Below are positions 574-31,662 of a stretch of 64,000 bases of DNA, piece after piece. Both the position numbers and the translations under genes were made by a program. Every line of letters begins with the position of its first letter. The stretch's first letter is position 1. Below the pieces are notes generated by a model. The model saw nothing but the letters and a program-made list of their open reading frames with translations. It ran no database searches and was not told where the DNA came from. Source of the DNA: Shigella phage SHSML-45; sequence record KX130863; one strand, written 5' to 3'.

Positions 574-819
574 TTATTCCCAAATAACATTTAAAATAGT
601 TGTACCATAGTTATTAGATAGTTTGAGAGTATAACCCTCTTTATAAATGGCTTTTATGGCCTCATAACTAATTTCATCACGGTTAAACTGCACATAAGAA
701 CCACCACATTCTACAGAAGATATAATCCGTCTTTTAACGTATCTATACGGTTTCTTTCTGCTCTTGAGAAGAGCAGCTCTATTAACTCTAGCTAAATGTT
801 TTGCTTGCTCTGCTAACAT
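574..819 (-). CDS. hypothetical protein (81 aa)
   Basis: ORF in the minus-strand gene array, tightly packed with neighbours. Confidence 0.4.
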   Translation of the reverse strand: MLAEQAKHLARVNRAALLKSRKKPYRYVKRRIISSVECGGSYVQFNRDEISYEAIKAIYKEGYTLKLSNNYGTTILNVIWE

Positions 820-2648: not shown

Positions 2649-3065
2649 TTAATCTACTACATGTATAAATCTTTTCCTAACTAGATACATAGTTATTGGG
2701 TAAATTGAGTACATAAGTATCGGGGAGAAAAGGGTGAAATACGCTGTAACTCCCCCAGCTAACATCAAAGGTATTAATGCTAGAGTAAGGGCCATAAGAA
2801 TCATACCGAATGAAACAGCCAAAGCTATGGATATAGGATTCTCTAGTTCCATCCATAACCAACAATATTTCGTATCTCTATGGCAATTGCATTTACAAAC
2901 GCCGAATGAACCCATAATTATATACTCTAGTCCGTGAATAACCTTTATTAATAAGCTATTTCGGGTAGTTAATGCAAGGATAGTAAAGACTATCATTAAA
3001 ACGAATACTACTAGACTTATTTTCCAGATACCTAGCAGCATCATAGTGAATAGTTCTGCAAACAT
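2649..3065 (-). CDS. multi-pass membrane protein, possibly lysis-associated
   Basis: Several hydrophobic segments; lies immediately downstream of the endolysin gene. Confidence 0.35.
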   Translation of the reverse strand: MFAELFTMMLLGIWKISLVVFVLMIVFTILALTTRNSLLIKVIHGLEYIIMGSFGVCKCNCHRDTKYCWLWMELENPISIALAVSFGMILMALTLALIPLMLAGGVTAYFTLFSPILMYSIYPITMYLVRKRFIHVVD

Positions 3066-3140
3066 GGCTTTCTCCTATCTTCAAAAATTATTAAAGCCCC
3101 CTTTGCCTAAAAAGGCGGGAATACTCCCGCCGTATCTTAC

Positions 3141-3554
3141 TTAAATCAATTCTATATGTGGGCCATCAAAAGTACCACGTTGGATTTCATCCTTATAACT
3201 TCCGTTCTGGTTCCAATCACCACCCCATCTAATCTTTACCCCTAGCTCTTCTGCTGCCTTAAAGAAGGCATCTGCCACTAATTTGAATGATTCTAAATCA
3301 TTCCAATCAATCTTCCCATTTTTAAGAGGAGCAAAGTCAACGGCCAGCCCTTGTACGTGTTTTGACTTGCTCGGGTCTTTTAAAAACGAGGTTCCATTCT
3401 TAATATTTTGGGCGCTTTGTTCTAAGGAACGTAATCCTTCTGTAATCGTAAAATCATATGGGCTTAATTCTAAAGCTCTATGAGTTACTCTTACTAAATC
3501 TGGATGAACACCCTTTAATCTATCTAAACTTCTTTTACCAAATTTAAAACTCAT
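3141..3554 (-). CDS. endolysin, L-alanyl-D-glutamate peptidase (M15/VanY-like)
   Basis: 137 aa; HVQGLAVDF and GPHIEL fit the zinc-ligand H-x6-D...H pattern of M15 peptidases; length matches the T5 endolysin as recalled. Confidence 0.7.
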   Translation of the reverse strand: MSFKFGKRSLDRLKGVHPDLVRVTHRALELSPYDFTITEGLRSLEQSAQNIKNGTSFLKDPSKSKHVQGLAVDFAPLKNGKIDWNDLESFKLVADAFFKAAEELGVKIRWGGDWNQNGSYKDEIQRGTFDGPHIELI

Positions 3555-4207
3555 ATTGATCTACCTAAAGATCTCTGTTGTGGGGAACAGAGCTTTGTTA
3601 AATACTCGTTAAATTTCTCAGAATCGGCTGCATCTACAGGATTATCTTTCCAAGCAATACCAATATATCCAGCATAGATATTGTTTAGATTGAAATAGGG
3701 ACAAGTGTATATGTAATTAAAAGTAACGTTCTTAAACGCAGGTATATTTAACCCCATGTATTTATTTACTTTTACACTTAAATCCGATGCGTAGTTAAAG
3801 CCTTCCAAGTGACGTCTATATAGCTCAGACGTTTTATTTACCGCTTTATCGGCCAAGTCAGCCCTATCTAATTGCGCATTGCTTTCCCATGCAATAATGT
3901 TAGAATAATCATTAATGGCATCGGGTTTATACTTGACGACAAAAACAGCATCCGCACCCGTTTGAGAAAAGAGTACCATGCTCTTTTCTCTAGCTACATT
4001 AGGAAAGTTATCTATCCTTTGAGTTTGAACATCCTGTAGAACCGCAGACGTGGAGAAAGTCTTTAAGAATGACATCACCTCGCTAGTATTACTAACAAAT
4101 AAGAAAATAATGACAGCAACTAAGATAGTTAGCAGACGTTTAAGAAGCGATGCTGGATCTTTCGCTTCTTGGAGCAGTACCGTTAATAATTGTAAGAACT
4201 TTTCCAA
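3551..4207 (-). CDS. membrane protein, candidate holin
   Basis: 218 aa with one N-terminal TM helix (ILVAVIIFLFV); directly upstream of and overlapping the endolysin gene. Confidence 0.35.
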   Translation of the reverse strand: MEKFLQLLTVLLQEAKDPASLLKRLLTILVAVIIFLFVSNTSEVMSFLKTFSTSAVLQDVQTQRIDNFPNVAREKSMVLFSQTGADAVFVVKYKPDAINDYSNIIAWESNAQLDRADLADKAVNKTSELYRRHLEGFNYASDLSVKVNKYMGLNIPAFKNVTFNYIYTCPYFNLNNIYAGYIGIAWKDNPVDAADSEKFNEYLTKLCSPQQRSLGRSI

Positions 4208-4320
4208 TTGTAACCTCCTCTAACCAGTACCATTATACTAATTTTGGAGGAAAATTACAATGTGTTTTTAAAGATCACTTCTGGAGCACAAAATTATGTC
4301 GTTGTCAAGAAGAATTTTAG

Positions 4321-4353
4321 ATAAAAGAAAAGCCAGGGTACTTAACCCTGGCT
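4321..4353 (-). terminator. rho-independent terminator
   Basis: Stem agccagggt/accctggct followed on the minus transcript by a U-rich run. Confidence 0.45.
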
Positions 4354-4362
4354 TAAAATTAC

Positions 4363-4962
4363 TTACTCTTCGTTGTGCTCCTCGGATTGAGGTAACTGAG
4401 CTTTATTATATTGCTCAGATCGATATTTTGCCAAGATTTCAGTACGCTTATGAATTTCCTTGCTATCTAGATAGATATTTTTGTTGTCTTTTACCATCTC
4501 GTCGATTTCATCTATTGAGAAGAACGGATAGTAGACATCTAGCATCATATCTTCTACAAACTTGTTGTAAGATTCATAGGCTTTCTTGATTTCTTGACCT
4601 TTCTCACAGAACCCGCCAGAGAACGTGTGCCCCATTAGCGTAGCATGTGGATGTACTACCCATCCATGACAAGATAGGAAAATTGTGCAGTAAGCAGAAG
4701 CACTAGGACCAATCAGGTGTCCTATAACTGTTCCACGGCAATTAGCAATTAAGTTAGATAACTGTGCAGCAGTATCAACATAACCACCTGGACCATTAAT
4801 CATCAGATTAATTTCGTCGTCCTCATTTGCCTGCATAAGTACCATTGATAAATCACGGTATTCATCCGGTGGGCCTAATTCTTCATCAAAGAAAAAGGTA
4901 TACTCGTTAGATTGGCGAATGGAGTGAAACAGGTTAGTCTTTTCTTCTTTTTTATTAGTCAT
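4363..4962 (-). CDS. ClpP-like serine protease
   Basis: INLMINGPGGYV and IGPSASAY resemble the ClpP INSPGG and GxSAS signatures. Confidence 0.55.
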   Translation of the reverse strand: MTNKKEEKTNLFHSIRQSNEYTFFFDEELGPPDEYRDLSMVLMQANEDDEINLMINGPGGYVDTAAQLSNLIANCRGTVIGHLIGPSASAYCTIFLSCHGWVVHPHATLMGHTFSGGFCEKGQEIKKAYESYNKFVEDMMLDVYYPFFSIDEIDEMVKDNKNIYLDSKEIHKRTEILAKYRSEQYNKAQLPQSEEHNEE

Positions 4963-4974
4963 AGCGATCCTTGA

Positions 4975-5727
4975 TTATCCAACTAGTGGTTCTAGCTCTA
5001 AGTCACAGAAGTTATAAACTTCTAGTTTAAGGTTATTGATACCATCGAATTTATTAACTAATTCGTGAGTAATATATTTTGCAGGAATACCACTTTCAGA
5101 TGGATGATCTGATTTAATAGTGAACTTCTGCTCAGCGGGTACTACATTTACTATCAAAGAATCCATATCTAAATGGTTTGTTTCTCTGAGTAACTCTCCT
5201 TCATTGGGGAATCTAACATCTGTTATTACGGCGACATCTGGGTCGTCTTTAGCGATGGATTGCTCCAGAATTATGAGCCAAATGCGTTCATGCACCAGCT
5301 GCCTTCCTAGCTCTGTCCCTACGAGCTGTAACATTTTTCTCGGAGAAATAAATAAACTATAAAGACCATCTTCTTTACTCTCTGAGATAAGTTGTTGAGG
5401 ATTAAGATATTTTTCCTCAAAAATAGGCCAAACGTACGAGAAGTCTTCAAACTTATCGATACCATACTTAACCCACACATCTCTAGCTCGCTCCAACTGA
5501 GATTGTGTGACCGTAAACCATTGGTCAATTTCTTTTCCCCTGCGCTCTCCTAGAAACTCTGGAGTTACCCCGAGGATTACGGATGCAAGCTCATAAACTG
5601 GTTTAGCAAAACTGTAACGACGGGGTAAACACGTTGGATACGTGTCATTACACCAATCGATAATTAATTTTGCAACGGTATCTTTTCCTGCACCTGCCTC
5701 GCCATGTAAACCTACTAATACTGACAT
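4975..5727 (-). CDS. deoxynucleoside monophosphate kinase
   Basis: N-terminal P-loop LHGEAGAGKDTVAKLI resembles the T4-type dNMP kinase GxxGxGKDT motif; 250 aa. Confidence 0.6.
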   Translation of the reverse strand: MSVLVGLHGEAGAGKDTVAKLIIDWCNDTYPTCLPRRYSFAKPVYELASVILGVTPEFLGERRGKEIDQWFTVTQSQLERARDVWVKYGIDKFEDFSYVWPIFEEKYLNPQQLISESKEDGLYSLFISPRKMLQLVGTELGRQLVHERIWLIILEQSIAKDDPDVAVITDVRFPNEGELLRETNHLDMDSLIVNVVPAEQKFTIKSDHPSESGIPAKYITHELVNKFDGINNLKLEVYNFCDLELEPLVG

Positions 5728-6080
5728 TAATCTTTCCTATTGTTAATGGGTGGATAGTAAATTAAGCAACGTTTTTCTTGTAAATCTTGGCGATAAAAGC
5801 AAACCATACTAGTCAATCGTGAGATATATGAATATTCTGCCTCGCGGCATTTTGCCAACATATTCCAATCTTTATATGGTACGACTACTACTACGCCATC
5901 CTCCCCATTTGTAGCTAATTTCTTTTCGAATTTGAAATCAAAGCTACAAGGTTGAAGTCCTTTAGGCCAGTCCACATGAGCTGTTGGTAGTTCATGGGTA
6001 GGTTCTGGCTTTATTTCTTGTGCACAGCCTGTGATTGTGATTGCGGCTGCGAGCAGTATTCCAAGTTTTATTTTGTGCAT
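5727..6080 (-). CDS. lipoprotein
   Basis: Signal peptide with lipobox LAAAITITGC. Confidence 0.5.
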   Translation of the reverse strand: MHKIKLGILLAAAITITGCAQEIKPEPTHELPTAHVDWPKGLQPCSFDFKFEKKLATNGEDGVVVVVPYKDWNMLAKCREAEYSYISRLTSMVCFYRQDLQEKRCLIYYPPINNRKD

Positions 6081-6766
6081 CTACGCACCTCATAATGTGT
6101 TTCTATGTATTGTTCCACTTCTACTGGAGAAACATTGAAAAACTCTGTACTTCCACTAAACCCCCCATAACTGCATCTTTTATTTTTATAGACACTATGT
6201 AGGTCAGCTTCGATCTTAGCTGTTTCTTCCTTAGAACCCTTGCCACAAATATAGTAAGATGATACTCTCAGATCTTTAAAACCACTACAAGACTTAACTT
6301 CTAGAAGTCTTTTCTGCACACTCTTACTTATACCTATTTTTATGCCTTTATCTGAAACAAATATGTATAAAAATCCTTGTGTATCCCAAGCTGTTTTGGC
6401 ACAATTTGGGCACCCACTATGGTGTAAAACGTGGTTAGTGGTTGTCTCCCACTGATGGGAACATGTATTACATAAAAACTTTAGCTTAGAAGTAGAATTA
6501 GTATATTCACTTAGTAATACGATTTTTCTAGGACTGAGGAGTGAGTTAATCCTGTCTTTGGTTAACTTTTCATTGCCTGCACATTTTGGGCATCCTCTAC
6601 CTTTATTTCTGACATTTGTAGGGGCTGTTAACCATGTATTAGAGCATATAAGACACTTAAATTGTGTCTTTGTCTTATTATGTTCATATTCCCCTACTAA
6701 TCTTACTGTCCTACCTTGAGCTTCTAAATCTTTATTAAAGATTTCTTTATTTATTTTTACGCTCAT
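6068..6766 (-). CDS. Zn-ribbon repeat protein with GIY-YIG-like (T5orf172-type) C-terminal domain
   Basis: Three CxxC...CPxC repeats followed by GFLYIFVSDKGIKIGIS; paralog of 31953..32816. Confidence 0.5.
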   Translation of the reverse strand: MSVKINKEIFNKDLEAQGRTVRLVGEYEHNKTKTQFKCLICSNTWLTAPTNVRNKGRGCPKCAGNEKLTKDRINSLLSPRKIVLLSEYTNSTSKLKFLCNTCSHQWETTTNHVLHHSGCPNCAKTAWDTQGFLYIFVSDKGIKIGISKSVQKRLLEVKSCSGFKDLRVSSYYICGKGSKEETAKIEADLHSVYKNKRCSYGGFSGSTEFFNVSPVEVEQYIETHYEVRRCTK

Positions 6767-7172
6767 CCCTACAGTACTCCAAGCTACCAGAAAGACATGC
6801 TAATCTTTCCTCGAATTCCTTACTCTGCTTTTTAGCAATTAATGTAACCAATCCAGGCTTTGCAGCTATAATATCTTGACGACTAAGTGCTTTATCAAGC
6901 TGATTAATTTTCTTGTCTAGATCTGCTTGCGAAACATTATTCATTGTGAAATACTGATTCATTCGAGTCTCACGAAGTTCACTCTCAGCCCTCACATTAT
7001 TAAGGGAAGTTTCTAGAGAAGAGATCTTTTTAGTAGCTACTGCAAGATCACCTGCTAGAGTCTCAACCTTATTAACTAAGTGATAAGCACCGAATCCGAT
7101 GCCTATCGCCAAACCAGCTCCCAGGATATACCACTTACCTTGCCATAGAGAACTAATAAAGTTTTTTATCAT
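6747..7172 (-). CDS. membrane-anchored coiled-coil protein
   Basis: N-terminal TM segment followed by heptad-rich sequence. Confidence 0.35.
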   Translation of the reverse strand: MIKNFISSLWQGKWYILGAGLAIGIGFGAYHLVNKVETLAGDLAVATKKISSLETSLNNVRAESELRETRMNQYFTMNNVSQADLDKKINQLDKALSRQDIIAAKPGLVTLIAKKQSKEFEERLACLSGSLEYCRDERKNK

Positions 7173-7852: not shown

Positions 7853-8368
7853 TTATCCTCTAAATCCCTCGTAAATAGCAAATTCACCAAAATACTCGAA
7901 TCTTAACTCATTAGCAGTTTCTACTGCTTCTTTAAGATCACTAAAGATTCCGCCATAGATTGTTTTTCTATCTTTAGTAACAGAAACTTGCCACTTATTA
8001 GCTCTTTTATTCCAACTTACATTTTTGTAACCTGAAGTATTATTAGAGTACTTTGACTTATTGGCATTATTCTGTGATTCAGTAGACTCCCTCAAGTTAT
8101 CCCAAACATTATTTGTTGGGTTAATATCTTTATGGTCTATGTTTTCTGGTATATAACCTTTCTTATATAGAAAGGCTAACTGATGAGCATAGTAAGGTTT
8201 TCCATCAATTCTTATAGAAATATACCCATTGGATTTTCCACCAGCTAAACATCCAGCATGTCTGGCATTCCATGCATTATCTAACTCTTTTCTGAACTTC
8301 CACCTAAAATTTCCAATATGTTCATCATACTCCAGAATACTTTTTAGGTATTCTTGTGTTAATTCCAT
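7853..8368 (-). CDS. HNH homing endonuclease
   Basis: AHQLAFLYKKGYIPENIDHKDINPTNNVWDNLRE...YKNVSWNKRANKWQV; paralog family. Confidence 0.75.
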   Translation of the reverse strand: MELTQEYLKSILEYDEHIGNFRWKFRKELDNAWNARHAGCLAGGKSNGYISIRIDGKPYYAHQLAFLYKKGYIPENIDHKDINPTNNVWDNLRESTESQNNANKSKYSNNTSGYKNVSWNKRANKWQVSVTKDRKTIYGGIFSDLKEAVETANELRFEYFGEFAIYEGFRG

Positions 8369-27315: not shown

Positions 27316-30300
27316 TTATAACTGACAGCCTCCTGATGCACAGCCTACTGCTTCTTCACCAGCTCCACCACCATTTTCAGTATTAAAATTAGCATAATAC
27401 CAAGTTTTTATACCATACTTAACAGCGATCATGAAGTCACGAACTACTACTGGGCCTGGAATGATTTCATTCTCGAATTTAGAGTAGTCATAATACGACT
27501 GGAAGCTTGAAGACTGATTCAGGAACTTCTGGTAAACAGCATTCCACTTAATATACTCTACCCTATCAATGTCATAAGCCAGTTTATAGCTCATTAATGT
27601 ATCCCAATCAGTTGCACCTGGAGCAATTGCAATTACTTTATTCACTGCACTACCCTTGATAGATACGATCTTACGGGGCGGTTCGATAGAGTTAGTAACA
27701 CCTAGCAGTACAGAGGAACTTTCACCTGGCATCTGAGCAGTCAGAACAGAGTTGCGCATACCATATTTCAGAATATCTGCACGCAGAGATTCCCAATCCA
27801 TTTCTAGACCTACAGTTACCAGTTCATCAACAGTTTTCTTGTACGTGTCGATTACCAGAGTTCCTTGCGAAGGCTTAGTACGATTAAACCAGTCACATGC
27901 ACCTTGTTCTTTAGCCAGACGTACAGAGGCTTTATGTAGGAAGTAGGACAGCTTTTCAGCTTCACGGTGAATCCAGTTACGGGCTTCAACACCTTCGTAA
28001 GCCAAACCTTCTGCTGCCATTGCACCTGCTGCGTTCATCAGACCAATACCAACGTTACGACGTTTCTTAGCCGTGTACTCCATAGTTGGGAATGGGTAAT
28101 CCTGAATCTCGATGATTGTATCAACGAATTTCAGAAGAATGTAGCAAGTTTTCTCCCATTCAGCCAGAGATTCCATACGACCTAGTACAACACCACCTAA
28201 GTTACACAGAGATACTTCACCAATATCTTCTGGACGCATATCGTCTAACTGATCTTGGGTCTTATACAGCTCCATAATGTGATGGAATGGACGGGTTGGC
28301 TGAGTAATTTCAACACAAAGGTTGGTCATACGAATCGGGTCAAGGAAGTTACCATGACGGTTAGATTCACCAATGTGATGAGCATACATACGCCCTGTTT
28401 CCATACGGATACGTAACCAAGTATCTAGGATTTCTTTTGCAGAGATTCTAGGAGCTGCTGGAATTGTTTTTCCTTCGTGGTCGATCTTTGTAAGAGAAGC
28501 CACACGTTTCTCCGCTGCCACGTAGATTTCTTCAAACTTAGCCTCATCTTCGCCATAAAACGCTTCATGAACTTCTGGTGCGTAGAAGTATGACATTAGC
28601 GTAATATCTTCATTTTTCAGATAACGTTTTAACAAAAGATTGTTGAAGCTCAGAGAATAATCCATCTTATCGATTTTATTCTCGTCTGTAGCACGTTGTT
28701 GCTTAACCTGCATCAACTGGATGATTTCAGGGTCAAAGTAAGGATAGGATACAGTAGCAGAACCACCACGGCTATTACCACAGACTATGGTATGCCCGTT
28801 ACGGCGCACTACTAACTTATTGGTGGGTACTTCCACACAATAAACTTTACCAATATACTCAACTTCAGTTTCCTTGATACCCTCTGCTGTCATATCTAGT
28901 TGGTCAAAATAGACATAGCAACGGTCTTTAGTGCTTGTATTTGAGCGTAATCCAGCAATTGCTGCTAGAGCCTGCACCACATGTTGTTGCCCTGCGTGGC
29001 TTGAGTATTCTCCAACATTTTCGGATTTCCAGTACCCATCCCACTCCATGATTTCTTTCAATGCTTCTTTCGCAGCATTAGATGTTAAATCCTTCTCTAG
29101 CAGGAAAGATAAGTCTTTCGAATAGTATAGCTGCCCATGCCCAATATGAATGGTAGTTACACCTTGTTCATTTAGCTTCTTAGAATATTTAAGACCTAAA
29201 TCATCTAGGATATGTACTAAACGATCTACCTTGCGTTGCTTTTTAAATCCGAAACGATACGCTCTACCTGTATTTGTTTCTACGATTGAACCATCAGCCT
29301 GCAATGCAATACGGAAGCGGTCTAGCATGGTGATAGTATCAGTACCATTTGTTTTCTGCGCTGAACCAAAATCTAGTGCATGGGTTCTTTTTGGTTGCCA
29401 ATCTTCTGCTAGGATTTTCTGATACCCAGGTTTACGTTGGATATTCTTATTATTATACGATACTTGACGGTATACCATAGTATGGTTAGGGGTTACTAGA
29501 AGATCTACCCCTCTTTTCTCGAAACGTAACATTGTACCTTCGTAATCATACTCGAACACATTAAGAGGTAATACCCATTCTAACCCCCTACTATCAGTAA
29601 TCTGAGCGACTAACTCATCTCCAGTAAGTTCTGAGAATAACTTCCAACCATTCTTAGTTAAGACTTCAGTATCCTCGGAGTAGCACTGTTGGGTATTTGC
29701 CTTTACTGAGCGGTCAATGTGTCGATAATATGGCAGTTTTCCGGAATGCGGGAATGCCCCATTTCGCACCGGATCAGCAATTGATCGGCTTTCAAGATGA
29801 TACCCGATTCCCGCTCTGGCTGCGACCATTTTGAAGACGATGTGCTCGGCTGTGTCGATTGAATCCAACGTGTCAGTGGAATCCACGAGGCAGCAACTAG
29901 CAAATCCACGGTCACTAGAACGCAAACCAACCAGTGGCGGCGTAGGAACGTTGATTTTGTGGAGCGACATTGCATTGTAGAGATCGATTGCATCTAGAAT
30001 TGTCCAGTTGGGTTGAGATAACATCGCCATTGCCATGCCCATATAGGCAAATTGCGGGGTTTCGTAAATTTCACCAGTGGCTATATTACGACGGGAATAT
30101 TTATCAAAGAACTGTTTCAGTCCACCACTAGTAAAAAGACGGTCACGATCGTGGTCTATAACCTGATTCAGAGCTTCAAATTGCTCATCGGTAATCCATG
30201 CACTCATGTCTTCCCATGCACCTACACTAACCATATGATCGTGGAAGAAGCGTAGAGAAGGTGGTTCGAAGGAATCATAAAGGCGTTTACGCATCTGCGC

Positions 30301-30618
30301 AAGACGTAATTCCTTTGCTGGCACGTCGTATGCTGGATTATCTTTAATAAGACTTTCGGCAGCTTTAATTAACGCATCCATCAGAGTATCGGAATCTACA
30401 ACCCCTTTAGGCAGAGTTTTTTGAGCAGCCATAGTAATGGCTGACCAACTTACATCAACTGTTTTGCAGCCATACTCTGCCCAACCATTGAGTTTTTCAG
30501 GAGCAAAGTCTTCTACAGTACCGTCACGTTTAATTACTTTTTCAATGCGATGGCTCATTTGGTTTTCCTTTTTATAGTTATCAGGATTTAGGAAATAGTT
30601 TACTTTATTCTCAGTCAT
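27316..30618 (-). CDS. nrdA: ribonucleotide reductase large subunit (class Ia NrdA) containing an intein
   Basis: Aligns by eye to E. coli NrdA over its length except for a ~304-aa insertion; product 1100 aa against ~760 expected; real start may be the second Met (MSHRIEK). Confidence 0.85.
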   Translation of the reverse strand: MTENKVNYFLNPDNYKKENQMSHRIEKVIKRDGTVEDFAPEKLNGWAEYGCKTVDVSWSAITMAAQKTLPKGVVDSDTLMDALIKAAESLIKDNPAYDVPAKELRLAQMRKRLYDSFEPPSLRFFHDHMVSVGAWEDMSAWITDEQFEALNQVIDHDRDRLFTSGGLKQFFDKYSRRNIATGEIYETPQFAYMGMAMAMLSQPNWTILDAIDLYNAMSLHKINVPTPPLVGLRSSDRGFASCCLVDSTDTLDSIDTAEHIVFKMVAARAGIGYHLESRSIADPVRNGAFPHSGKLPYYRHIDRSVKANTQQCYSEDTEVLTKNGWKLFSELTGDELVAQITDSRGLEWVLPLNVFEYDYEGTMLRFEKRGVDLLVTPNHTMVYRQVSYNNKNIQRKPGYQKILAEDWQPKRTHALDFGSAQKTNGTDTITMLDRFRIALQADGSIVETNTGRAYRFGFKKQRKVDRLVHILDDLGLKYSKKLNEQGVTTIHIGHGQLYYSKDLSFLLEKDLTSNAAKEALKEIMEWDGYWKSENVGEYSSHAGQQHVVQALAAIAGLRSNTSTKDRCYVYFDQLDMTAEGIKETEVEYIGKVYCVEVPTNKLVVRRNGHTIVCGNSRGGSATVSYPYFDPEIIQLMQVKQQRATDENKIDKMDYSLSFNNLLLKRYLKNEDITLMSYFYAPEVHEAFYGEDEAKFEEIYVAAEKRVASLTKIDHEGKTIPAAPRISAKEILDTWLRIRMETGRMYAHHIGESNRHGNFLDPIRMTNLCVEITQPTRPFHHIMELYKTQDQLDDMRPEDIGEVSLCNLGGVVLGRMESLAEWEKTCYILLKFVDTIIEIQDYPFPTMEYTAKKRRNVGIGLMNAAGAMAAEGLAYEGVEARNWIHREAEKLSYFLHKASVRLAKEQGACDWFNRTKPSQGTLVIDTYKKTVDELVTVGLEMDWESLRADILKYGMRNSVLTAQMPGESSSVLLGVTNSIEPPRKIVSIKGSAVNKVIAIAPGATDWDTLMSYKLAYDIDRVEYIKWNAVYQKFLNQSSSFQSYYDYSKFENEIIPGPVVVRDFMIAVKYGIKTWYYANFNTENGGGAGEEAVGCASGGCQL
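28774..29685 (-). mobile_element. intein in nrdA (aa 312-615) with LAGLIDADG-like endonuclease region
   Basis: Insertion begins CYSEDTEVLTKNGW (Cys1 plus block A-like) and ends VYCVEVPTNKLVVRRNGHTIVCGN followed by Ser+1; internal LQADGSIVE motif; flanking exteins align to NrdA ...VK/SRGGSATV. Confidence 0.65.
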
Positions 30619-30900: not shown

Positions 30901-31662
30901 TTACACCTTCCCCATGTCTTTAAAAATATCGTAGAATGCTTTAGACTCAGCAGAACGAACGTTATCAATCAATTCGATCATAGAGAAAGGAGAGTTTTCA
31001 TACTTCTCATAGACTTCCATAAGAAGTGCTAGACCTGAGTCACCTTTAATGTCTTTCTGAGCTATATCCCCGCAGATAATTAAACGGCAGTCTTGTCCTA
31101 CACGAGTTAGGAGACAAACCATTGCCTCAACGGAAATATTCTGAGCTTCATCGACAATTACATAGGAGTTGTTGAAAGTTCTGCCACGAGCATGTTCTAT
31201 AGCCAAAAATTTAATTTTCTGACGTTCGACATATCCCTTATAGGCATGATCACCGATGGCCCATTTCATACCATCAGCTATTGGCTCTAACCAAGGCTCT
31301 AGCTTTTCTGCTAGATCACCAGGAAGCATACCAAGAGACTTACCTAGAGGTTCATTAGGACGTACGAGGATCACTTGCTCAATATCTGAGTGAATGTCTA
31401 CGAGTTCCTGAGCTGCAAGAACAGACGGGATAAAGGTTTTACCAGTACCCGGCTCACCGATACCCACAGTCACTGTGTTGTTCTTGATCATATTAATATA
31501 TGATTTTTGCTCTCGGTTTTTACCTACTAGGGATTTAGCAACTGGGTTAGCGTAATCATTAGAAAAATCAGCCTGAATTACGTTACTCCCATATTTGTTG
31601 CCACGCTTTCTTGAACCATTGCGGTTCTCTCTTTTTTGACGTGCTTTTCCCATAAATAACAC
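30901..31662 (-). CDS. phoH: PhoH-like ATPase
   Basis: Walker A GIGEPGTGKTF and Walker B region LIICGDIAQKD. Confidence 0.8.
   Translation of the reverse strand: MLFMGKARQKRENRNGSRKRGNKYGSNVIQADFSNDYANPVAKSLVGKNREQKSYINMIKNNTVTVGIGEPGTGKTFIPSVLAAQELVDIHSDIEQVILVRPNEPLGKSLGMLPGDLAEKLEPWLEPIADGMKWAIGDHAYKGYVERQKIKFLAIEHARGRTFNNSYVIVDEAQNISVEAMVCLLTRVGQDCRLIICGDIAQKDIKGDSGLALLMEVYEKYENSPFSMIELIDNVRSAESKAFYDIFKDMGKV

What the first reader, a model, noticed from the sequence alone, without database searches (positions are those of the whole stretch)
4363..4962. Phage-encoded ClpP-like protease in the early region
ClpP-type signatures (INGPGG, GPSASA) occur in an early gene next to the dNMP kinase, far from any capsid module. 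This argues against a prohead protease role and for a regulatory or host-remodelling protease.
Basis: partly seen in the sequence, partly recalled or inferred. Interest (0 to 1): 0.45.

Follow-up and report, generated by a model that had tools for sequence, protein, structure and literature searches.

The report
T5-type phage ClpP-like protease gene
This is the already-annotated ClpP-like protease gene of a T5-like Salmonella phage: a real, strongly conserved non-capsid protease homologue whose function is still unknown, and whose catalytic triad has asparagine where ClpP has aspartate.

Summary

The window is 99.8% identical to Salmonella phage Shivani, where this gene is annotated "ATP-dependent protease". 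A 2023 BF23 paper calls its function unknown, so the gene itself is not new.

A non-capsid role is supported. Shivani has a separate S78 prohead protease beside its major capsid gene, about 76 kb away. None of the 16 relatives' gene neighbourhoods I read showed capsid genes beside the gene.

- Ser89 and His112 are invariant, but the triad acid is Asn162 in this clade (Asp/Glu in 149 of 162 family members).
- The residues E. coli ClpP uses to dock ClpX/ClpA are mostly polar here.
- A conserved terminator separates the gene from the holin promoter.
- dN/dS against one tequintavirus homologue is 0.08.

The most likely reading is a self-assembling cytoplasmic peptidase that does not dock ClpX/ClpA in the usual way. 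Its substrates are unknown.

The parts
4363..4962 (-). ClpP-like protease CDS, 199 aa. Ser89 = 4696-4698, His112 = 4627-4629, Asn162 (the triad acid position) = 4477-4479.
   Evidence: ORF. Pfam CLP_protease 33.7 bits. PHROG 1827 E 2e-89. ClpP fold. Residue mapping. Codons read.
4968..4972 (-). Shine-Dalgarno AAGGA, 5 nt before the ATG. It sits in the 12-nt gap after the dNMP kinase stop (TAA at 4975-4977).
   Evidence: Read directly from the sequence. Shivani annotates a ribosome binding site at the equivalent place.
4330..4354 (-). Intrinsic terminator hairpin (10-bp stem, 6 GC pairs, T-run) starting 8 nt after the ClpP-like stop codon. It ends the spanin / dNMP kinase / ClpP-like transcription unit.
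   Evidence: The hairpin is kept, with changes on both arms, in phages N7, K7_rec21 and contig L004, which has 39% protein identity.
4232..4260 (-). Sigma-70-type promoter-like site, TTGTAA-17-TATAAT, for the holin/endolysin unit. A conserved GAGGAGG ribosome binding site follows.
   Evidence: The -10 TATAAT is identical in all four aligned phages and the -35 is near-identical.
4975..5727 (-). dNMP kinase gene, immediately upstream in the same operon.
   Evidence: PF21448 E 1.6e-10 and PHROG 139 E 1e-50. Shivani gp044.
5727..6080 (-). o-spanin (Rz1-like lipoprotein), upstream in the same unit.
   Evidence: PHROG 812 E 2e-29. Annotated 'Rz-like spanin' in Shivani and 'o-spanin' in N7.
6747..7172 (-). 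i-spanin. In this phage a homing-endonuclease gene (6068-6766) separates it from the o-spanin.
   Evidence: Annotation of Shivani gp047 and N7 gp061c. The endonuclease matches PHROG 681 and the T5orf172 domain.
3551..4207 (-). T4-type holin (Phage_holin_T), the first gene of the next transcription unit downstream.
   Evidence: PF11031 E 8e-114.
3141..3554 (-). Endolysin (M15-family peptidase, annotated endolysin in Shivani).
   Evidence: PF13539 and PHROG 465 E 2e-57.

Best explanation
The ORF encodes a cytoplasmic subunit with the ClpP fold. It belongs to a phage-specific subfamily (PHROG 1827/5410) that large virulent phages carry in their early, nucleotide-metabolism regions rather than in the capsid module.

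In this T5-like phage (near-identical to Salmonella phage Shivani) it is the last gene of an operon: i-spanin, homing endonuclease, o-spanin, dNMP kinase, ClpP-like. A conserved terminator closes that operon just before the separate holin/endolysin promoter.

Shown:
- the fold;
- an invariant nucleophile Ser89 and general base His112;
- Asn162 at the triad acid position in this clade, where the ancestral and majority state is Asp;
- strong purifying selection;
- a separate S78 prohead protease elsewhere in the genome.

Inferred:
- The protein assembles into ClpP-like rings and works as a serine peptidase on phage or host proteins in the infected cell, not in capsid maturation.
- Its hydrophobic docking pocket and N-terminal loops are not conserved, so it probably does not dock host ClpX/ClpA in the canonical way.
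- With Asn in the triad, its intrinsic activity is probably attenuated or depends on assembly state, as in Listeria ClpP1 (Ser98-His123-Asn172).

The substrates and the benefit to the phage are unknown.
For: Fold and family:
- It is a distinct phage subfamily. 456 clusters (50% identity) match at E<=1e-30 over full length. In BFVD, ranks 1-19 have TM 0.75-0.86, after which scores drop to the 0.6 level of other ClpP-like proteins. 1311 phage records carry it.

Active site:
- Ser89 and His112 are present in 162/162 family sequences.
- The position aligned to E. coli Asp171 is D in 131, E in 18, N in 7, T in 5 and P in 1. The N group is exactly the query and its T5-type relatives.

Selection:
- dN/dS is 0.08 against the phage GEC_vB_N7 homologue.
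- It is one of only 8 core genes above 80% identity across 185 Tequintavirus genomes (PMC12639943).

Not a capsid protease:
- Shivani gp090, next to the major head protein, is Peptidase_S78 (68 bits).
- No capsid genes flanked the gene in any of the 16 contexts read.

Docking:
- E. coli ClpP pocket residues Y60, Y62, F82, I90, M92, F112, L114, L189 map to N52, M54, N74, H82, I84, V102, H104, A178. These positions are largely polar or charged across the family.
- Residues 1-19 have pLDDT 48-68 and vary in length and sequence.

Operon structure.

Against: - No biochemical data exist for any member of this subfamily that I could find.
- Oligomeric state could not be modelled with these tools.
- The docking-pocket argument rests on a sequence alignment at about 17-20% identity, and on my own recollection of which E. 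coli residues form the pocket.
- The protein was detected in purified BF23 virions, at about 25-fold lower intensity than the prohead protease. Some association with capsids therefore cannot be excluded.
- The third triad position varies across the family (E, T, and Q in Barba phages). The Asn may therefore matter less than in bacterial ClpP.
- At least one phage record (KKP 3953) has the gene in two pieces. That hints at dispensability, or at a sequencing error.
Confidence: 0.6

Rival explanations
1. It is a canonical ClpP surrogate. The phage protein forms tetradecamers that dock host ClpX or ClpA and redirect ATP-dependent proteolysis.
For: It has the ClpP fold with the handle helix retained: the spacing from His112 to position 162 is 50 residues, against 49 in E. 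coli ClpP. [quoted passage not shown]
Against: Docking-pocket positions are mostly polar, and there is no conserved N-terminal axial loop. It falls far below the NCBIfam ClpP equivalog cutoff, 16.9 against 308.6 bits. The triad Asp is replaced by Asn. The database names are transferred by homology only.
Confidence: 0.1
2. It co-assembles with host ClpP. A phage heptamer stacks on a host ClpP heptamer, as Listeria ClpP1 does on ClpP2, and so changes or poisons host ClpXP/ClpAP activity. That could, for example, block protease-triggered defence or toxin-antitoxin systems.
For: It shows the same combination as LmClpP1: a Ser-His-Asn triad and, by alignment, no evident chaperone docking site. LmClpP1 is among the best structural matches. 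In the Asn clade, a Gly in the hinge at the start of the handle helix is replaced by Glu120 (Gly in 149 of 156 other sequences). I place that hinge at the ring-ring interface from my own knowledge of ClpP structures.
Against: Sequence identity to E. coli ClpP is only about 17%. No interface conservation was shown. Most family members keep Asp or Glu and occur in phages of very different hosts. This is pure analogy.
Confidence: 0.08
3. It acts in lysis. The protease controls lysis timing, for example through turnover of the holin, a holin regulator or the spanins.
For: Across Demerecviridae-like phages down to 29-41% identity, the gene sits between spanin genes and the holin or endolysin:
- P0016: spanin, dNMP kinase, Clp, holin T, M15 endolysin.
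- P0020: Clp, holin T, CHAP endolysin.
- Vibrio 234P1: Clp overlaps lys.
- P0030 and P0045: spanin immediately upstream.

Against: A conserved terminator and an independent conserved promoter separate it from the holin. Outside the T5-like group the family sits with PhoH or replication genes and no lysis genes. The linkage may simply be inherited gene order. The protein has no signal peptide or transmembrane segment, while much of holin T and the spanins is periplasmic.
Confidence: 0.08
4. It is an accessory capsid or virion protease descended from ClpP-related prohead proteases.
For: Among NCBIfam models the best hit is 'head maturation protease, ClpP-related' at 40.3 bits, above bacterial ClpP models at 23 bits or less. 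Secondary PHROG hits are head maturation proteases. The protein was detected in purified BF23 virions. Many relatives carry long charged C-terminal tails.
Against: The 40.3 bits is far below that model's cutoff of 120. A dedicated S78 protease sits beside the capsid gene. The gene was never next to the capsid genes in the contexts read. The virion signal is low, below dihydrofolate reductase, a metabolic enzyme detected in the same preparation.
Confidence: 0.07
5. It is a pseudo-protease: a catalytically dead ClpP-fold ring with a binding or scaffolding role.
For: Asn replaces the triad acid, along with clade-specific changes around the active site: P86, S87, Y91, E120.
Against: Ser89 and His112 stay invariant across the Asn clade (down to 55% identity to the query) and across all 162 family sequences. 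dN/dS is 0.08 against one homologue. Ser-His-Asn ClpP1 is active in the right assembly.
Confidence: 0.07

Closest known systems
Bacterial ClpP (MEROPS S14; e.g. E. coli ClpP, PDB 1yg6)
   Different: Identity is about 17-20%. Asn stands in place of the catalytic Asp. The IGF-loop docking-pocket residues and the N-terminal axial loop are not conserved. There is an extra long C-terminal helix (167-189) with a family-invariant Arg173, and a conserved Lys121 that E. coli ClpP lacks. It falls far below the NCBIfam ClpP cutoffs.
Listeria monocytogenes ClpP1 (PDB 4jcq/4ryf)
   Different: ClpP1 is a cellular paralogue with a known ClpP2 partner ring. No partner is known here, and most members of the phage family keep Asp or Glu.
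T5 / BF23 / Shivani 'ATP-dependent Clp protease' (PHROG 1827; Shivani gp043, BF23 ORF45)
   Same: It is the same gene: 99.5% protein identity to Shivani gp043, with the same neighbours.
   Different: Nothing differs; this is the known annotated gene. Its function is stated to be unknown (PMC10644984).
ClpP-related phage head maturation proteases (NCBIfam NF045542; PHROGs 1684, 94)
   Same: Shared ClpP fold, detectable HMM similarity, and phage origin.
   Different: It scores well below the family cutoff, 40 against 120 bits. It is not located beside portal, scaffold or capsid genes. The phage already has an S78 prohead protease.

Membership tests
ClpP / peptidase S14 (Pfam PF00574) | ClpP (crotonase-like) alpha/beta fold | tested here: met
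ClpP / peptidase S14 (Pfam PF00574) | Profile score above the curated threshold | tested here: met
   PF00574 scores 33.7 bits against a cutoff of 20.2, covering residues 41-139 only.
ClpP / peptidase S14 (Pfam PF00574) | Catalytic Ser nucleophile and His general base in the family columns | tested here: met
   Ser89 aligns with E. coli Ser97 and His112 with His122 in the HMMER, MAFFT and hhalign alignments. Both are invariant in 162/162 family sequences.
ClpP / peptidase S14 (Pfam PF00574) | Catalytic Asp completing the Ser-His-Asp triad | tested here: not met
   The Asp171 column holds Asn162 here and in the 6 closest cluster representatives. Across the family it is D 131, E 18, N 7, T 5, P 1. 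No nearby acid is conserved that could substitute.
Bacterial ClpP orthologue (NCBIfam TIGR00493 / PRK00277) | Equivalog-level score | tested here: not met
   TIGR00493 scores 16.9 against 308.6 bits. PRK00277 scores 23.1 against 249 bits.
Bacterial ClpP orthologue (functional ClpXP/ClpAP core) | Hydrophobic surface pocket that binds IGF/LGF loops, and conserved N-terminal axial loops | tested here: inconclusive
   By alignment, Y60, Y62, F82, I90, L114 and L189 map to N, M, N, H, H and A. The N-terminal 19 residues are variable with pLDDT 48-68. The list of pocket residues comes from my own knowledge of ADEP/IGF-ClpP structures, and the alignment is at low identity.
Bacterial ClpP orthologue (functional ClpXP/ClpAP core) | Heptameric rings stacking into a tetradecamer | not testable with these tools
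   Only monomer prediction was available.
Phage ClpP-like 'ATP-dependent protease' family (PHROG 1827) | Full-length profile match | tested here: met
   E 2e-89, residues 1-198 against profile positions 5-201 of 202. All 70 diverse relatives tested also match.
ClpP-related head maturation protease (NCBIfam NF045542) | Score above cutoff, and a position in the capsid module next to portal, scaffold or capsid genes | tested here: not met
   It scores 40.3 against 120 bits. It lies in the early region about 76 kb from the capsid genes, which have their own S78 protease.
SppA / peptidase S49 | Ser-Lys dyad and best structural match to SppA | tested here: not met

The most novel reading that the evidence does not exclude
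The phage ClpP-like ring might not be a free-standing protease. It could work with a partner that is not ClpX or ClpA. There are two candidate partners.

(a) A host ClpP ring. This would form a Listeria-ClpP1/2-like hetero-tetradecamer that rewires or poisons host ClpXP/ClpAP during infection.

(b) The phage PhoH-like ATPase. Its gene sits directly upstream of this family's gene in several unrelated phage lineages. 223 phage records have the adjacent pair, though 115 of the PhoH- or Clp-matching records are near-identical Barba phages, so far fewer are independent. PhoH is encoded elsewhere in T5-like genomes. Such a pairing would give phage PhoH, a widespread 'auxiliary metabolic gene' whose function I understand to be unknown, a first biochemical role.
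Probability: 0.08. Interest if true: 0.75.

Novelty: already known. Interest (0 to 1): 0.28.

Why it matters
The gene is one of the few core genes above 80% identity across 185 tequintaviruses, and it belongs to a family present in more than 1300 sequenced phages. Even so, I found no function assigned to it. T5-like phages are widely used as models and in biocontrol.

If the protein modulates host proteolysis, that would bear on host takeover and on evasion of protease-triggered defence systems. As it stands, this finding re-identifies an annotated gene. It adds three sequence-level refinements: the Asn triad, the missing docking pocket, and the operon boundary.

Tried and rejected
- **Broad locus search.** The search for related loci on viral contigs failed twice with family alignments A2 and A3, because no stretch was conserved enough. 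I sampled contexts instead with the look-up of encoding contigs and annotated phage records.
- **A relocated catalytic acid in the Asn clade.** D159 and D166 are variable. The clade-specific Glu120 replaces a near-invariant Gly 8 residues after His112.
- **Co-transcription with the holin.** I rejected this as the default reading. A conserved terminator and a conserved promoter lie between the two genes.
- **An 11/12 promoter-like match inside the 3' end of the gene** (4405-4434, minus strand). It is not conserved in K7_rec21 and is degraded in N7. The number of promoter-like sites in the region equals the shuffle expectation. I treat it as chance.
- **Literature.** Searches for any functional study of T5-type or other phage early-region ClpP-like proteins found only annotation-level mentions and one 'function unknown' statement.

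Full report
**What is there**

Window 4363-4962 on the minus strand is an intact 199-aa ORF. It has an AAGGA ribosome binding site 5 nt upstream, in the 12-nt gap after the dNMP kinase stop codon.

The region 3000-7000 is 99.8% identical to Salmonella phage Shivani, a Tequintavirus in the Demerecviridae. About 447 T5-like phage records match it. In Shivani the ORF is gp043, annotated 'ATP-dependent protease'. [quoted passage not shown]

**Is it ClpP-like**

Yes.
- Pfam CLP_protease is passed: 33.7 bits against a cutoff of 20.2.
- PHROG 1827 matches end to end at E 2e-89.
- A profile of 70 relatives aligns to E. coli ClpP with 97.9% probability.
- An AlphaFold model (pLDDT 86.1) finds only ClpP structures at the top of Foldseek/PDB, with E 3e-9 and TM about 0.65.

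It is not an orthologue of bacterial ClpP. NCBIfam ClpP equivalogs score 17-23 bits against cutoffs of 250-310.

It belongs to a discrete phage subfamily:
- 456 clusters (50% identity) match at E<=1e-30 over full length.
- 1311 phage records carry it.
- In BFVD there is a clear step between family members (TM 0.75-0.86) and other ClpP-like proteins (about 0.6).

**Catalytic residues**

In a 163-sequence alignment that includes E. coli ClpP, Ser89 and His112 fall in the columns of E. coli Ser97 and His122. Both are invariant.

The Asp171 column is Asn162 in this protein and in the six closest cluster representatives. These are T5, Shivani, Epseptimavirus-type phages and some Klebsiella phages. 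In the rest of the family it is Asp (131), Glu (18), Thr (5) or Pro (1). Barba phages have Gln there.

A Klebsiella T5-like phage at 55% identity, with identical gene order, still has Asp. Asn is therefore a derived state of the T5-type clade.

The same clade has further specific changes next to the active site: Pro86, Ser87, Tyr91 and Glu120. Glu120 replaces a Gly found in 149 of 156 other sequences.

The gene is not decaying. dN/dS against phage GEC_vB_N7 is 0.08. It is also listed among only eight core genes above 80% identity in 185 Tequintavirus genomes (PMC12639943).

The nearest precedent is Listeria ClpP1, with a Ser98-His123-Asn172 triad. It is an inactive heptamer on its own, cannot bind AAA+ partners, and is activated within a ClpP1/ClpP2 heterocomplex (PMC9257651). 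It is also one of the best structural matches.

**Partner docking**

From my own knowledge of ClpP-ADEP and ClpXP structures, the IGF-loop pocket of E. coli ClpP is lined by Y60, Y62, F82, I90, M92, F112, L114 and L189. These map to N52, M54, N74, H82, I84, V102, H104 and A178. Across the family these columns are mostly polar or charged.

The first 19 residues, where ClpP has its axial loops, are variable in length and sequence and have low confidence.

This argues against canonical ClpX/ClpA docking. It rests on a low-identity alignment, however, and is an inference.

**Context**

On the minus strand the order is:
- i-spanin (6747-7172)
- homing endonuclease (6068-6766)
- o-spanin (5727-6080)
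- dNMP kinase (4975-5727)
- ClpP-like (4363-4962)
- terminator hairpin (4330-4354)
- promoter TTGTAA-17-TATAAT (4232-4260)
- T-type holin (3551-4207)
- endolysin (3141-3554)

The terminator, the -10 box and the holin ribosome binding site are conserved in phages down to 39% protein identity. The hairpin shows changes on both arms. The ClpP-like gene therefore closes one transcription unit, and the holin opens another.

T5-like genome descriptions place DNA metabolism and lysis genes in the early region (PMC4319617).

The capsid module is about 76 kb away in Shivani, outside this window. It contains its own prohead protease, which scores as Peptidase_S78.

**Relatives elsewhere**

In T5-like and more distant Demerecviridae-like contigs the gene stays beside spanin, holin or endolysin genes, even where the endolysin type differs.

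In unrelated phages it follows a PhoH-like ATPase gene or sits among replication genes. Examples are Rheinheimera Barba, Pseudomonas Otagovirus, Vibrio K406 and PS17B-2, Escherichia phage nom (136 kb), Alteromonas V22 and one metagenomic contig.

A tblastn search with a concatenated PhoH+Clp query found 223 phage records where the two genes are adjacent and co-oriented.

Capsid genes flanked the gene in none of the 16 contexts read. In Barba phages a separate peptidase lies between the portal and capsid genes.

**Literature**

[quoted passage not shown] There it was detected in purified virions by 3 peptides, at about 25-fold lower intensity than the prohead protease (PMC10644984). Other papers list it only as an annotation.

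**Verdict**

The gene is already known and annotated, and 'regulatory or host-remodelling' remains unproven.

Ser and His are present, and the Asp is replaced by Asn.

My best reading (confidence 0.6) is a self-assembling, cytoplasmic ClpP-fold peptidase of a phage-specific subfamily. It likely has an attenuated or assembly-dependent active site and no canonical ClpX/ClpA docking. Its substrates are unknown.

The rivals each have low probability:
- a canonical ClpX/ClpA partner;
- co-assembly with host ClpP;
- control of lysis timing;
- an accessory capsid protease;
- a pseudo-protease.

All of them are directly testable with the experiments listed under next steps.

Noticed in passing
Loci L010 (4198-5720), L011 (4190-5555), L012 (3302-5933), L008 (4407-6678); window PhoH at 30901-31662 (-): Outside the T5-like group, this ClpP-like family sits directly downstream of a PhoH-like ATPase gene in several unrelated lineages: Barbavirus, Otagovirus, Vibrio K406 and PS17B-2, Escherichia phage nom (136 kb) and Alteromonas V22. 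A tblastn search with a concatenated PhoH+Clp query found 223 phage records with the adjacent pair. 115 of the matching records are near-identical Barba phages, so independent cases are far fewer. In this window PhoH (PF02562, 207 bits) lies about 26 kb away.
   Followed up: partly
window 4196-4460 (-): The ClpP-like/holin intergenic region is conserved across phages whose proteins are only 39-55% identical. It holds a terminator hairpin with changes on both arms, an invariant TTGACA about 50 nt upstream of the holin promoter with no obvious -10 partner, a perfectly conserved TATAAT, and a GAGGAGG ribosome binding site. The holin starts at TTG.
   Followed up: partly
window 4603-4605 (Glu120) and 4690-4692 (Tyr91), inside the CDS: The Asn162 clade also carries Glu120 in place of a Gly present in 149 of 156 other family members, and Tyr91 in place of Ala or Gly. 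This is a coordinated remodelling around the active site and handle hinge.
   Followed up: partly
window 6068-6766 (-): A homing-endonuclease gene (T5orf172/MUG113 domains with zinc ribbons) is inserted between the i-spanin and o-spanin genes, overlapping both ends. In phage GEC_vB_N7 the two spanin genes overlap each other directly, with no such insert.
   Followed up: partly
window 574-819 (-) and Shivani gp143/gp155: The RefSeq annotation of the matching phage labels small early-region ORFs with structural names: an 81-aa 'major head protein', a 65-aa 'tail length tape measure protein' and a 212-aa 'tail fiber protein'. These look like over-transferred names.
   Followed up: no
phage records OR847290.1 (H16) and OR067837.1 (H28): A 3967-bp record named 'Listeria phage LM 4-11-1' carries this gene at 99.5% protein identity, so the record is probably a mislabelled or contaminant T5-like contig. 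Salmonella phage KKP 3953 has the gene in two pieces, with a 136-aa product. That is either a frameshift or a sequencing error.
   Followed up: no
window 27316-30618 (-): This 1100-aa ORF corresponds to the ribonucleotide reductase large subunit, which Shivani annotates as containing an intein. The region also has many HNH/AP2 homing endonucleases, for example 1633-2172 and 7853-8368.
   Followed up: no
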